In this document: in pieces, positions 24,521 through 31,584 of the stretch
Position numbering within the stretch: position 1 is the first letter of the stretch
Layout of the letters: each line of letters begins with the position of its first letter
DNA from: the human T2T-CHM13v2.0 reference genome, Homo sapiens
Assembly (NCBI RefSeq): GCF_009914755.1
Contig: NC_060948.1
Direction: 5' to 3' (one strand)
DNA length: 64,000 bases
The notes under the pieces: generated by a model
What the model saw: the letters and a program-made list of their open reading frames with translations, nothing else
What the model was told of the DNA's origin: nothing
The model's database searches: none
Translations under genes and position numbers: made by a program

Positions 24521-24992
24521 GGAAATTTTGGCCACACAAAAATGAAGTTTAGACAGTCAATGGGGAAAGGATAATCTCTTCAGTAATTGGTGCATGTGTT
24601 CCCTTTGTGCCCTCGTCAAAAAGTAGTTGAATACATGTGGGCTCTCTCTTCTGTTCCACTGGTCTATGTGGCTGATTTCATCACAGTATGATGCTTTTTC
24701 TAAGGTTTGGTCATAACCAGCACCAAAAAACAGCAAGCTGCGCCATTCCCCCAGCTATTCTACTTCTTCACGCTGCTTAGCTGGGGTTTTGGGGACTTGA
24801 ATTCCCTTGACAGTTTCTCTACAACTGTCTTTCTCCCATTTCTGTGCTGGCTCCATACTAAATGAACAGTGTATCCTTACCACAGCTAGATGTGCCTATT
24901 TTATGTAAATCTAAGTAATTCATTTCAAGATTAAGATATCATTATAAAGCAATTACAACTGGAGATTGTTAATGAATATCTTTCCCTTTATT

Positions 24993-25240
24993 TGTGTGTG
25001 TCTGTGTGTGTGAGAGAGACAGAGAGAAACAGAGATAGAAACAAGGTCTTACTCTGTTGCCCAGGCTGGAGTGCAGTGGCGTGATTCACAGTAGCCTCAA
25101 ACTCCCAATATTAAGAGATTATCCCACCTCTGCCTCCTGAGTACATGGGACCACAGGCACACACCACTGCATCTGGCTATTTTTATTTTGGCATAAATAA
25201 GCTCTTATCATATTGTGCACCTGGTCTCAAATGATCCTCG
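24993..25240 (-). mobile_element. AluJ-like element with (TG)n/(GA)n tail
   Basis: ggtcttactctgttgcccaggctggagtgcagtggc; degenerate. Confidence 0.8.
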
Positions 25241-27720
25241 AAAATAGTTTCTAAAGAAGTATTTCTACTTTAGTGCTTACCTGGACTTCATCTGGATTCA
25301 TGTGACCTCCAGGGCTTCATTCAAATTGAAATGTGGAAATAATAAGATTTTTCTTGATTTTTTTTCCCCAGAAAAAGCTCAGGAGCCCTGGCCCTAGTCC
25401 AAGTGGGGCTTAGTCATCTTCTGGAATCTGCCCAAGCTGACTGTGAGCATTGACCATGCCATACCCTACCTAGCTCCCAAGGGACCTCTAGGACCTGGGT
25501 TGATCTTCCTGAAGCAGCCACTACATTTTCAACCCCTGGTGTTTCCTCTATGCTTGGAGGAAAGTCTGGAACAGGAGAAATTTACACAACTATATGACTA
25601 TTGGCTATCTAGCTGGTCCCTTATGAGGGCTGAGTAATGAAGAAGACCCTGGGATGGAAGAGAAGCATGTTTGGAAAGAGAATAGTATCCTCTCTTGAAT
25701 AATAAAAAAAAAAAACTGTATTTCTCTTCACCATACTTCCCCCTCTAATCTAGGCTAAATTTGAAAACAAACAAACACAAACACCTCTTCTGTGTTTTCT
25801 ATCAGGAAGTTCTGGAATTCTGCAAAAAGGGCACCTGAGCAACCAACAAGTCAGCCCTTGTGCCCAATTGTGCCCCAAGCTGAATGAATTCACTTTTTGT
25901 GTAGAGGCCAAGACAGCTGTTGGGGAGGCTGGCTGTAAGGGGACAAATTCATGGGGTATGAATGCCAGGAAGAAAGAGGAATATCTTGCACACTAAAAGT
26001 TACTTCTGGCCCTCCTTCAAAATATTGATTCATATCTTGTATCTTTGTTTCTTGCAGCGTGACTTGGGAGCACCTTTCGTATGCCATCTACAGCAAAAGG
26101 ACACTTGGGTGCAAGTGGGAATCTTGAGTCACTTTGAGGAGCATTGCACAAAGCCGTGTGTCTTCAGCCAAGTGCACCCTTTTCTTTCTGGCTCCTGGGA
26201 GTGCCATGGCCTAGCCATGCACCCTGGCACCACCAGGGGCCCATGACTACCTCTGCTTCCATGTCCCTTTCAGTCTCTGCTTCTAAAGATGCCTTGACTT
26301 TTATCTCCACTCCCACTTCCATTTGGCCACACTTCATCTCTCTGCCACAGCCTCAGAGTAAGGCTCAAAACCTTGGTAGGCAAAGCCAAAGAAGAAGGTA
26401 ATTGAAATAGAAAAGAGTAGATGGAAGGAGAGAGGAGAGAAAGCTCTTCCTGAAAAATGCACAATATTTTATCTCCCAAATCATGGAAGTTATTTCCTTA
26501 TGGCTTACAAAGGCATTTCATACTTGATATATTATTCAATTTCCATAGTATCCCTATAGATTATGATAGAGATCATTTAACATGATTATTATAGTTATCT
26601 TAAATGTGTATTCTGATACTAGATAAGTAGAATGGATTGATCGATTTCTCATGGCAAAAGATGAATAGGGCTAATATTAAGACACACTCTCCTAACACAA
26701 AGACATTTCTTTACTACCACACAGTAGCTTGCATTTGTAATAGAGTTATTTTAAATTAAGTATATTTTAAGTTAAAGATATTTTGATGTTTGGAAACAGT
26801 GTAATAGTTGGTAAGTAATGAGTTTTAGGTGCTGGTGTACTAGATTGGGTTACGTTGCTATTATCAGTTTCCCCCTTCCTTTGGCTATCAGAAAACCTAT
26901 CACAATATTAGCAATGGCTATTTCACATTACTGTACTTCTACTTGTTTCCTTAGAAATTGAGGGATCTCTTTTGGTCTCATGAGTTAAATGTGCACTTAG
27001 CCACAGCTATTTTATAGCTACCACCTATCGCCATAGTTACAGTGAATAATACACTTAAAACATAAAAGAGGCCATAATTATTTGCTCACATCCTCCAAAG
27101 TCTAACTCAAAGACAACTACACTTAAGATCTTAGTTATGCTTCTAATTTCATCTATACTTCCTTACCCCTTCTACAGACAGGTTATCTTCAACATTTTTA
27201 TCTCTCTCTATATATATATAAACGAGCATTGCTTCAACTCAGTTTTCTGAGGAACGCTAAAATAATTTTAAAAATATGAGCTCTTTCCTGAACCTCAATC
27301 TTGAATTTTCTATTTAAACTATTGGTTTGATATCTCACTAAAATTGTAAGTTTAGGAAGAAAAGCCCCCTCCATTTTAGAGACAGGTGCTTTATCTCCAA
27401 ATTTTTCATTATTTATTAATACATTCAAATCATTACATTTTCTGTTGCCTATCTACTTCAGTGATTTCTGGGTAGCTACAATCATGGATATATAAATGTT
27501 GCAATGGGGGAGAAAGCTGGGATGACTCCCAATATTTTGATTAAAGAAATTTAAGCTATGACATAAAGAAACTATGAACTCAGAAAGATAGTAAGAGGAA
27601 CACTTCTTTTCAAGAAAAATGCATGAACACAAAAGACGTAGAAGTTTGTCTTTGCTGGTCATATTTAACAATGCTAATTTGGTTAGCACAAATAGGAGGG
27701 ATTTAAAACTTAAAAAAATG

Positions 27721-29283: not shown

Positions 29284-29872
29284 GTTGTCCACAGTGGCTC
29301 AATCCTATATTTCCAGCACTTTGGGAGCTTCAACCAGGAGAATGTTTTAGGCCCAGGAATTTGATACCCAGTTGGGCAATAGAGCAAGACTTCATCACTA
29401 AACAACAACAACAACAAATAGCTTGATGTGGTGTTGCACACATGTAGTCCCAGCTACCTGGGAGGCTGAGAGAGGAAGATAGCTTGAGCCCAGGAGGTTG
29501 AGGCTGCAGTGTGTGAAGATGGTGCCAATGCACTCCAGCCTGGGTGACCAAGCAAGAACTTGTCCAAAAAAAGGTTTGGGAGCTGGCATGGTGGCTCATG
29601 CCTGTAATCCCAGCACTTTGGGAGGCTGAGGCCAGTAAATCACCTGAAGTCAGGAGTTTAAGACCAGTCTGACCAACATGGGGAAAACCCATCTCTACTA
29701 AAAATACAAAATTAGCCAGGAGGGGTGGTGTGTGCCTGTAATCCCAGCTACTCAGGAGGCTGAGGCAGGAGAATTGCTTGAACCCAAGAGGCTGAAGTTG
29801 CAGTGAGCTGTGAGCAGGCCACTGCATTCCAGACTGAGTGACAAAGTGGAACTGCATCTCAAGAAAAATAAA
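29284..29872 (+). mobile_element. Two tandem Alus (AluJ ~29284-29572, AluS ~29580-29872)
   Basis: Two consecutive Alu dimers. The first has J-type cttgagcccaggagg. Confidence 0.88.
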
Positions 29873-31584
29873 GGTCAATAGAAAGATAATAAAATATATA
29901 AATGTGTGATGTAAAATTTAATGGTGATAAAATAAACTGAATTTCTCTGTGTAAGTTACACATACAAATGTAATGACGAGACAGTGATAAGACAAATCAA
30001 GGTTTTATCTCAATACTTAGTGTCTACATGTAACATATGTTCTTTAGGATAGTTATAGTCCATTTTCTTTCCAGGAGAGACTGATGAGAATGCAGAAATG
30101 TTAAAGCACAAGTGATGGAAGCTTCCAGCTGTGCCCACCTGTAACCTGACATAGACAGTTCCATTGTTTGCTTCATTACTCAGGTCAAAGACATTAATGC
30201 AAATGTGGTACACAGTCAAATTCTTTTCTATCTACATGATAGAAACTATAACTTTGTCCCTGTATAGAAGGGTATACAGCATATGCCTAAATGATAAATA
30301 TAAGTGAATCATTGATCAGTAGGAAACCATTTTAAAAGTCTTTAATTACAGAACAAAATCTCTGAAAAATTTTATTGTCAATCTGAGTTTTCTTACATGA
30401 GTTATTAATCTCTAGCCATACTAAAGAGATAGTATGCTGTTCTTCAAACAAATTAGACATTGTATATAAAACGACTCCAACATTTTTCTATTTCTCCAAG
30501 TAAAATAACTTGTTTAAGGTATGCTCTTCAGTGATTTTTTTGTAGTAACACTTTTGAAGGTATTTTACCAGGAAGATTTACTTATGTACTTATCTGATGT
30601 CTGCCTTTCTTCTGAATACATATTTTATCACCCACTTATTAATTCTAAGTTTAAGAAGTTGGAATAGGGATTTAAATCCAAATTCTACGTTTGAATTTAC
30701 AGGAGTCAGTGAGTCCAGAAAATGTCATTATGCGCAGACCAATATCTGGCAATGGCACTAGGGGACAAATATGCTTTACCAGTCTCAAAGCCCTAGCTAC
30801 TACAGTGAGTCCACACTTCTCCTGTATCTTATCTGCTTCAGCAAAAGAAGGCCACCCACTAAATCAGGCCGTTGTGGCTTGGGTGGAAACTCCTAAGTCC
30901 TCTACTCTCCTTAAAGAGCCAACCACACTGCCACTTTCCTCAATAATAATTACTGCAGCTCTGAGACTTTGGTAGCCTAGTGACTATAACTATTGATGCT
31001 ACAGTCTGGTCACAGTATGATAAAACACCAAAACAACAAAAACAAAAATATTGACTTAAGCCTTCTAAGATCTCTCTAAATATACCTTCATTAAATATGA
31101 TCTTTTTCTACATAACAACTGCTTTCTACTTCCTGAACTAATGCATGGCCTTGGATTGCTTTCATTCTTGAAATTGATTCAAAAGTGTATATTTAACATG
31201 AAGGTGAATACAGAATTTCATGTGTCAGCAAATAAAATTTTCAAAATGATGCAAAATACAAATGTGAAATTTATTTGTGAATTTGATTATTCTTTCAGAT
31301 TATATTTTCATACTTACCCCCTCGCACAATTTTTTATAACTATCTGCATGTTCTCCTCAGGTTGGGGAAAAACAGTATTGGAGTTCTTGAATAATTTATG
31401 AAAGACAGAATGACAATACTATACAAGGTTAACCTATACACAATACTGTATTTGGTGAGCGAAAATATTACATATAAAATCCTACAAAAGTATTAAGTAA
31501 ATATAATACATTATTTCAATAATTATAAAATACATGTACATGAAGAAAATATAATAATGATTAAAATACATTAACAAACAAATG

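What the first reader, a model, noticed from the sequence alone, without database searches (positions are those of the whole stretch)
24770..30975. Tandem double trypsin-like pseudo-enzyme gene remnant (PRSSLY-like) with a reconstructable exon structure
Seen: eight exons reproduce the trypsin intron pattern twice. Exon 26058-26357 joins in frame (phase 1) to 28084, so both domains and a Ser/Thr/Pro-rich linker formed one polypeptide. Domain 1 has TTARC instead of TAAHC and DLGAP instead of DSGGP. Domain 2 keeps AAHC but lacks the catalytic Asp (RNILALL) and the GDSGG motif. The last exon is still open for 90 codons and ends in a hydrophobic tail. Established: PRSSLY is a testis-expressed Y gene with multiple trypsin domains, reported as lost in hominids. 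Inference: this is its decayed 3' half, and the domains were probably non-catalytic even before pseudogenisation.
Basis: partly seen in the sequence, partly recalled or inferred. Interest (0 to 1): 0.7.

Follow-up and report, generated by a model that had tools for sequence, protein, structure and literature searches.

The report
PRSSLY remnant seeds the TSPY array
This is a broken, front-truncated copy of the known Y gene PRSSLY, whose two protease-like domains lack a full set of catalytic residues in the intact animal versions compared; PRSSLY remnants recur at 14 or more places on the human Y, and its last two exons sit in each unit of the TSPY gene array, which likely grew out of a PRSSLY-TSPY pair.

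Summary
Confirmed: eight exons (24798-30975) encode two trypsin-like domains, a linker and a hydrophobic tail, 50-79% identical to a protein named PRSSLY. A human PRSSLY pseudogene is already published (PMC9178871), but that model starts in the twin IR3 arm (chrY 10.244 Mb). The window holds a 99-100% identical duplicate, cut at 24798 where IR3 meets X-transposed DNA, with 5 frameshifts, 2 dead donors and 1 stop.

The pseudo-enzyme inference holds. Domain 1 has His57 in 0 of 13 orthologs and Ser195 in 0 of 16; domain 2 has no GDSGG motif. The open last exon evolves neutrally (pN/pS 0.93).

Not found in my literature searches: exon 6 occurs at 14 chrY loci, 8 of them with TSPY 1-5 kb downstream. 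Window 29777-48642 is one TSPY array unit, and that unit begins inside an Alu in a PRSSLY intron. The junction and/or last exon were seen at 45 consecutive array positions. The TSPY array likely arose from a PRSSLY-TSPY cassette of the window's lineage.

The parts
23400..24561 (.). X-transposed flank (unrelated to PRSSLY)
   Evidence: 97% identical to C23:91,569,645-91,570,785
24558..24801 (.). junction insert of three short chr7-like pieces between X-transposed DNA and IR3
   Evidence: C7:27,985,240-275 (-, 94%), C7:27,985,274-378 (+, 94%), C7:28,219,168-279 (+, 100% over 112 bp)
24798..24904 (+). E1, 5'-truncated first exon of trypsin-like domain 1; TTARC (His57 position is Arg); 1-base deletion
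25372..25629 (+). E2, domain 1; no Asp102 (GPGLIFL); 2-base deletion; donor reads CT
25806..25939 (+). E3, domain 1; donor reads GG
26058..26357 (+). E4, end of domain 1 (DLGAP; Ser195 position is Leu) plus Ser/Thr/Pro linker; 1-base deletion
28084..28219 (+). E5, start of domain 2 with His57 (AAHC); no indel
   Evidence: Pfam Trypsin E 1.3e-5
28585..28830 (+). E6, domain 2; Asp102 codon changed to Ile in this copy; 2-base deletion; 14 copies on chrY
29579..29848 (+). Alu in the E6-E7 intron; the TSPY array unit begins inside it, at 29777
30075..30207 (+). E7, domain 2; 1-base deletion (same place as in the array unit) and stop at 30142-30144
30703..30975 (+). E8, terminal exon: degenerate Ser195 region and hydrophobic tail; 90 open codons, neutral
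29777..48642 (+). one TSPY-type repeat unit: half Alu, E7, E8, TTTY23B region, TSPY13P and downstream DNA
   Evidence: 84-89% identical to C24:8,968,897-8,987,005 in circularly permuted order
36209..38937 (+). TSPY13P, 5.2 kb downstream of the PRSSLY stop on the same strand
   Evidence: hub annotation; the same spacing recurs at other copies

Best explanation
This is a non-coding, 5'-truncated duplicate of the human PRSSLY pseudogene at the outer edge of the distal IR3 arm, one of at least 14 PRSSLY remnants on chrY, which were likely copied as a PRSSLY-TSPY cassette, and a duplication breaking inside a PRSSLY intron likely founded the TSPY array. Shown: exon structure, lesions, truncation point, twin identity, copy positions, TSPY spacing at 8 of 14 loci, the array junction inside the intronic Alu, and triad loss in orthologs. 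Inferred: (a) the copies spread while E1-E8 were still intact, then decayed separately; (b) the array descends from the window/twin lineage; (c) the window copy was cut when IR3 was joined to X-transposed DNA, with chr7-templated filler; (d) the ancestral protein was a catalytically dead, probably GPI-anchored spermatid surface protein that binds or chaperones other proteins as PRSS37 does. The window copy is predicted to make no protein.
For: Identity: named PRSSLY P0027 is 73% identical to query P0001 over 99% and hits all exons. Best HSP against the region is 153 bits for orthologs against about 45 for other proteases among 179 stored proteins. All 82 genome matches of P0017 are on chrY. 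Truncation: homology to four longer copies starts at 24798; the twin is 99.0-100% identical over 24798-36000 and carries the rest of the exon and the giant exon (39 HSPs against 0 in the window); the published human model starts at C24:10,244,192 and is not in the window; the upstream DNA is chrX-like. Cassette. Array; tree support 99/98 for window+twin+array; shared E7 deletion. Triads: and by eye in Additional file 5. Independent decay: no frameshift or dead splice site is common to all lineages compared in any exon, and the majority of copies reads open through E1-E6 (406 aa, 88% identical to bat) and E8.
Against: TSPY linkage is not universal. Two loci (7.94 and 8.55 Mb) keep the flank up to 36 bases before TSPY's start but show no colinear TSPY, and the four near-identical copies at 22.8-26.9 Mb had no TSPY hit among the 40 of 134 candidates scored; their flanks were not read. 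The tree is unrooted, covers 1.5 kb and could be shaped by gene conversion. The E7 stop is shared by 4 lineages that do not form one clade. A shared lesion in the giant exon or promoter was not tested. The automatic E7 majority came out 1 base short, which I read as an alignment artefact because 4 of 9 lineages have the intact length. No primate outgroup DNA was available. The GPI anchor was judged by hydropathy only.
Confidence: 0.88

Rival explanations
1. The window is the original PRSSLY locus and its 5' half decayed in place.
For: All eight 3' exons are present in order with most splice sites intact.
Against: A sharp break at 24798 in mid-exon, chrX- and chr7-like DNA upstream, no trace of the giant exon in 64 kb, and a 99-100% twin that keeps it.
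Confidence: 0.03
2. The open terminal exon is kept by selection and yields a small membrane peptide, perhaps from the TSPY array copies.
For: E8 is open in 5 of 9 lineages including the array; a database protein (P0127) ends in the same 32 residues as the array copy's frame; human remnants are transcribed at low level (PMC9178871).
Against: pN/pS 0.93 (109 N + 3 stop, 46 S changes over 9 lineages); a 53% chance of staying stop-free given the window's 17 substitutions; conserved Cys and Trp residues are lost in the window copy; the paper's table says 'no ORF in any transcript' for human.
Confidence: 0.05
3. Domain 2 of intact PRSSLY is an active, non-canonical protease that uses its His57-Asp102 pair with a shifted serine.
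For: His57 and Asp102 are kept in 23 of 23 therian rows; HMMER puts the Ser of the takin VSPG motif on Ser195 of granzyme M; the fold is intact (pLDDT 80, Foldseek E 1e-13).
Against: That position is Ser in only 10 of 23 therians (Thr 7, Asn 3, Arg, Ile, Gly); the Cys201-anchored position is Pro in 22 and Ala in 1; Gly193 and Asp194 are absent; platypus, echidna, anole and newt lack His57.
Confidence: 0.07
4. PRSSLY was already dead from a lesion outside E1-E8, and all copies are passengers of TSPY/amplicon duplication from the start (differs from the best reading only in timing).
For: PMC9178871 finds pseudogenes in marmoset, rhesus and apes, which points to early loss; the upstream exons were not compared.
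Against: No lesion is common to all lineages in E1-E8, so little time can have passed between death and first duplication.
Confidence: 0.3

Closest known systems
PRSSLY (protease, serine-like Y; dog DYNG) and its published human pseudogene model (PMC9178871)
   Same: Same two C-terminal trypsin-like domains, linker, tail and exon junctions; Y-only; pseudogene in human.
   Different: The published model begins in the twin arm at chrY 10.244 Mb and includes the giant exon; this copy lacks everything 5' of 24798. The main text names one domain type and has 0 hits for 'catalytic', 'triad', 'active site', 'GPI' and 'TSPY'; it calls PRSSLY single-copy in species with good assemblies.
TSPY/DYZ5 20.3-kb composite repeat (bioRxiv 2022.12.01.518724; PMC3924835)
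   Same: Window 29777-48642 aligns to one full unit at 84-89%.
   Different: Here the unit is single, carries a TSPY pseudogene and stays joined to PRSSLY E1-E6. The array papers searched do not mention PRSS (0 hits; 0 for 'protease').
PRSS37 (sperm pseudoprotease) and PRSS55 (closest paralog per PMC9178871)
   Same: Testis S1-fold proteins; PRSS37 is catalytically inactive and helps ADAM3 reach the sperm surface (PMC9114714 passages).
   Different: PRSS55 keeps its triad and both are needed for fertility. PRSSLY has three trypsin-like domains in full-length forms (Pfam, platypus P0028). Mouse knockouts are fertile; a sex-ratio effect is seen in PMC9178871 but not in PMC7617377.
Tandem-domain S1 proteins (prostasin-like P0025; polyserases, recalled)
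   Same: Two S1 domains, an S/T/P linker and a hydrophobic tail.
   Different: P0025 keeps a full triad in its first domain; PRSSLY has none in either domain; only 24% identity.

Membership tests
PRSSLY-derived pseudogene | Best matches are PRSSLY orthologs, not other PRSS genes | tested here: met
   82 of 82 genome matches on chrY (stricter first look, 70 of 351 candidates scored). Human PRSS55 itself was not used as a query.
PRSSLY-derived pseudogene | Exon order and junctions as in PRSSLY cDNAs | tested here: met
   E1/E2, E4/E5 and E5/E6 junctions compared by eye with supplement cDNAs
PRSSLY-derived pseudogene | Y-linked with no X or autosomal copy | tested here: met
   14 of 14 E6 matches on C24; 40 of 40 scored E8 matches on C24
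PRSSLY (functional gene) | Giant upstream coding exon | tested here: not met
   0 HSPs in the window; present at the twin and 4 other fetched loci
PRSSLY (functional gene) | Intact reading frame | tested here: not met
   5 frameshifts, 2 dead donors, 1 stop
PRSSLY (functional gene) | Testis, post-meiotic expression | not testable with these tools
   PMC9178871 reports low-level transcription of the human pseudogene, not resolved by copy
Active S1 (chymotrypsin-fold) protease | Chymotrypsin fold | tested here: met
   Ortholog domain 2 (P0012): pLDDT 80, Foldseek E 1e-13 to granzyme M and factor XII; Pfam Trypsin twice in P0001. Domain 1 not modelled usefully.
Active S1 (chymotrypsin-fold) protease | His57-Asp102-Ser195 triad in domain 1 | tested here: not met
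   His 0 of 13, Ser 0 of 16 named orthologs covering those columns
Active S1 (chymotrypsin-fold) protease | His57-Asp102-Ser195 triad in domain 2 | tested here: not met
   His and Asp 23 of 23 therians; GDSGG motif 0 of 26 rows covering it; His 0 of 4 non-therians
GPI-anchored sperm S1 proteins | C-terminal GPI signal (small-residue site, spacer, hydrophobic tail) | tested here: inconclusive
   13-residue hydropathy maxima 1.45-2.83 within the last 45 residues of 17 orthologs, 1.84 in the window; predicted terminal helix. No GPI predictor available.
TSPY/DYZ5 repeat unit | Colinear homology over the ~20-kb unit | tested here: met
TSPY/DYZ5 repeat unit | Head-to-tail tandem array with intact TSPY | tested here: not met
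   Single unit; window sequence diverges from the array after 48642; TSPY13P is annotated as a pseudogene

The most novel reading that the evidence does not exclude
The human TSPY array is an amplified PRSSLY-TSPY fragment. PRSSLY and TSPY were neighbours on the primate Y, and the pair was duplicated to at least nine lineages while PRSSLY's protease exons were still intact. One tandem duplication breaking in a PRSSLY intronic Alu created the 20.3-kb unit, so about 45 units carry PRSSLY's last two exons, and PRSSLY was lost as TSPY amplified. PRSSLY domain 1 has been a pseudoprotease since the tetrapod ancestor.
Probability: 0.6. Interest if true: 0.62.

Novelty: new member of a known kind. Interest (0 to 1): 0.46.

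Why it matters
The locus itself is an unannotated copy of a known pseudogene. What it reveals matters more. It gives a base-level origin and a datable marker (the broken Alu) for the largest protein-coding tandem array on the human Y. It shows that a gene described as single-copy in other mammals left 14 or more dispersed remnants and about 45 partial ones in human, so short reads assigned to 'the' human pseudogene are ambiguous. It also recasts PRSSLY as a binding or scaffold protein rather than an enzyme, which changes how its disputed sex-ratio phenotype should be tested.

Tried and rejected
The two-domain AlphaFold model from 15 sequences was unusable (pLDDT 31) and was not searched. The PDB sequence search with P0001 gave 0 hits at E 1e-25. 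Pfam found nothing for 4 of 6 single window exon pieces. An Alu-Alu recombination origin for the array was rejected: there is no Alu at window 48642 and no clear microhomology. The dead E2 donor as a founding lesion was rejected: it looked shared by 4 of 4 copies, but GT is present in at least 2 of 7 lineages. Selection on E8 was rejected. Holmlund 2022 (PMC9476217) was not held. Earlier scan findings were not available. The flanks of the 22.3, 7.35 and 22.8 Mb copies were not read; only match coordinates are known.
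Full report
OBSERVATION. The eight exons are real: 24798-24904, 25372-25629, 25806-25939, 26058-26357, 28084-28219, 28585-28830, 30075-30207 and 30703-30975. A search with exon 6 alone returned 16 proteins among 211 candidates at 77-88% identity, and these hit all eight exons in order. A protein named PRSSLY (Peromyscus, P0027) is 73% identical to the armadillo hit P0001 over 99% of it and matches the window exon by exon at 50-79%. 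Among 179 stored proteins the best HSP is 153 bits for orthologs and about 45 bits for other proteases. Against the intact lengths the window copy has five frameshifts (E1 -1, E2 -2, E4 -1, E6 -2, E7 -1), two dead donors (E2, E3) and a stop at 30142-30144.

WHAT IS KNOWN. Hughes et al. [quoted passage not shown] Figures could not be seen and supplement sequences were cut at 400 bases each, so Fig. S1 or the uncut files may hold detail I missed. The identity of the feature is therefore known.

WHICH COPY THIS IS. A 22-base motif from the start of that model is absent from the window and matches exactly once in the genome, at C24:10,244,171-192. The window's homology to that twin, and to the copies at 5.97, 6.18 and 9.96 Mb, starts at 24798 in mid-exon. 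The twin is 99.0-100% identical over 24798-36000 and continues into the rest of the exon and the giant upstream exon (39 HSPs; 0 in the window). Upstream of the break the window matches chrX at 97% and then three short chr7 pieces. Downstream it again matches the twin arm at 99-100%, offset by about 20 kb. That fits the single TSPY2 unit placed in proximal IR3 by bioRxiv 2022.12.01.518724 and 518658 (passages). So the window copy is the cut outer end of the distal IR3 arm. That the X-transposed region is human-specific is recalled, not from a call.

CATALYTIC STATUS. I scored 28 named vertebrate orthologs, anchored on the active first domain of P0025. Rows not covering a column were left out of that count, as were unnamed and non-orthologous hits. 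Domain 1: His57 in 0 of 13 (Arg 7, Ile 1, Lys 2, Ser 1, Asn 2) and Ser195 in 0 of 16 (Leu 14, Val, Ile); no Asp at 102 in any row covering it. In Additional file 5 (by eye) all 18 eutherians shown, including mouse lemur, have Arg at His57. Domain 2: His57 and Asp102 are intact in 23 of 23 therians, and His57 is absent in platypus, echidna, anole and newt. The GDSGG motif is absent in 26 of 26 rows that cover it, with Pro (22) or Ala (1) at the Cys201-anchored position in therians. HMMER's alternative register puts a Ser there in takin, but that column is Ser in only 10 of 23. The domain still models as a chymotrypsin fold (pLDDT 80; Foldseek E 1e-13). The tails are hydrophobic in all 17 orthologs scored; a GPI anchor is inferred, not tested.

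A DISPERSED FAMILY LINKED TO TSPY. Exon 6 has 14 matches in the genome, all on chrY, at 83-100% identity (a lower bound). TSPY exon 1 lies on the same strand 5.2-5.3 kb downstream of E8 at six loci (window, twin, 5.97, 10.16, 22.34, 7.35 Mb) and 1.0 kb downstream after a deletion at two (6.18, 9.95 Mb). Two loci (7.94, 8.55 Mb) keep the flank to 36 bases before TSPY's start and then diverge. The four near-identical copies at 22.8-26.9 Mb are unresolved. No frameshift or dead splice site is shared by all lineages compared (4-9 per exon), and the majority reads open through E1-E6 (406 residues, 88% identical to bat) and E8. I infer amplification at or before the gene's death; the upstream exons were not compared.

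THE TSPY ARRAY. Window 29777-38937 and 38942-48642 align at 84-89% to the two halves of one array unit. At the unit junction, DNA matching the window up to 48642 is fused to DNA matching the window from 29777, which is inside the Alu in the E6-E7 intron. The unit therefore holds half of that Alu, E7 and E8. The junction is 99-100% identical at 40 of 40 scored positions (2961 candidates, 40 scored). Together with the E8 hits, this marks 45 consecutive positions at about 20.3-kb spacing from 8.958 to 9.851 Mb; the array is described with 44 coding copies. The window keeps the whole Alu and the upstream exons, so the array is the derived form. A tree of 1.5 kb groups the array with window and twin (99/98; 8 rows, unrooted), and they share the E7 deletion.

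THE OPEN LAST EXON. It is open in 5 of 9 lineages. Changes from the majority give pN/pS 0.93, and a simulation with the window's 17 substitutions stays stop-free in 53% of 5000 runs. No selection is needed to explain it.

MECHANISM. Shown: anatomy, lesions, break point, copies, linkage at 8 of 14 loci, array junction and triad loss. Inferred: a primate PRSSLY-TSPY pair was duplicated repeatedly; one tandem duplication with a break in the intronic Alu founded the array; IR3 later copied one locus and cut it at 24798. The window copy is predicted to be inert. The ancestral protein likely worked like PRSS37, an inactive sperm-surface protein that helps place ADAM3 (PMC9114714 passages); this is an analogy only. 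Mouse knockouts are fertile, with a female-biased sex ratio in PMC9178871 and none in PMC7617377 (passages).

NOVELTY. Searches: PRSSLY (23 papers); DYNG; PRSSLY+TSPY (6 papers, 5 listed; passages of two read with no link made, three seen as listings only); TSPY array/IR3; PRSSLY+catalytic (1 irrelevant paper); TSPY/DYZ5/serine protease (none of the 10 listed holds the last term); PRSSLY+pseudogene+primate. None states the triad loss, the multi-copy family or the PRSSLY exons in the TSPY unit. Four Y-assembly or ampliconic preprints have 0 hits for PRSS. Their supplements, subscription papers (Soh 2014, Hughes 2020, recalled) and Holmlund 2022 were not seen. The unnamed 'fam' repeats of the TSPY composite may be these exons. 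File 3 of PMC9178871 notes multiple Y matches in horse, zebra and donkey and many transcripts in marmoset, so multi-copy remnants have been glimpsed in other species.

VERDICT. A new, truncated copy of a known pseudogene, with two well-supported additions that I did not find in print. Interest 0.46.

Noticed in passing
window 24558-24801: About 240 bases made of three chr7-like pieces (one 100% identical over 112 bases) sit at the X-transposed/IR3 junction; they look like templated insertions from break repair.
   Followed up: partly
window 36000-38937: Identity to the twin's adjacent TSPY falls from 99.8% to 86%, while 37754-38085 is about 100% identical to the next TSPY copy at C24:10.205 Mb. 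TSPY13P looks like the join left by loss or gain of one 20-kb unit.
   Followed up: partly
window 42590-44000: An older internal repeat, 73-76% identical to the region around 32500-33800 (TTTY23B) as seen in the twin and the array unit.
   Followed up: no
L044 (C24:23,027,139-378) and C24:23,230,202-441: An inverted pair of further PRSSLY fragments with exon 2, not among the 14 exon-6 loci.
   Followed up: partly
L042 (C24:7.35 Mb): This copy has an A-run insertion in E3 and an interrupted E1.
   Followed up: no
proteins P0127 and P0016: Database proteins that resemble translations of human-like remnant frames (array E8; an E6 with the Ile change), probably spurious predictions.
   Followed up: no
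proteins P0028-P0030, P0032, P0033: Full-length homologs carry a third, N-terminal trypsin-like domain that also lacks His57.
   Followed up: partly
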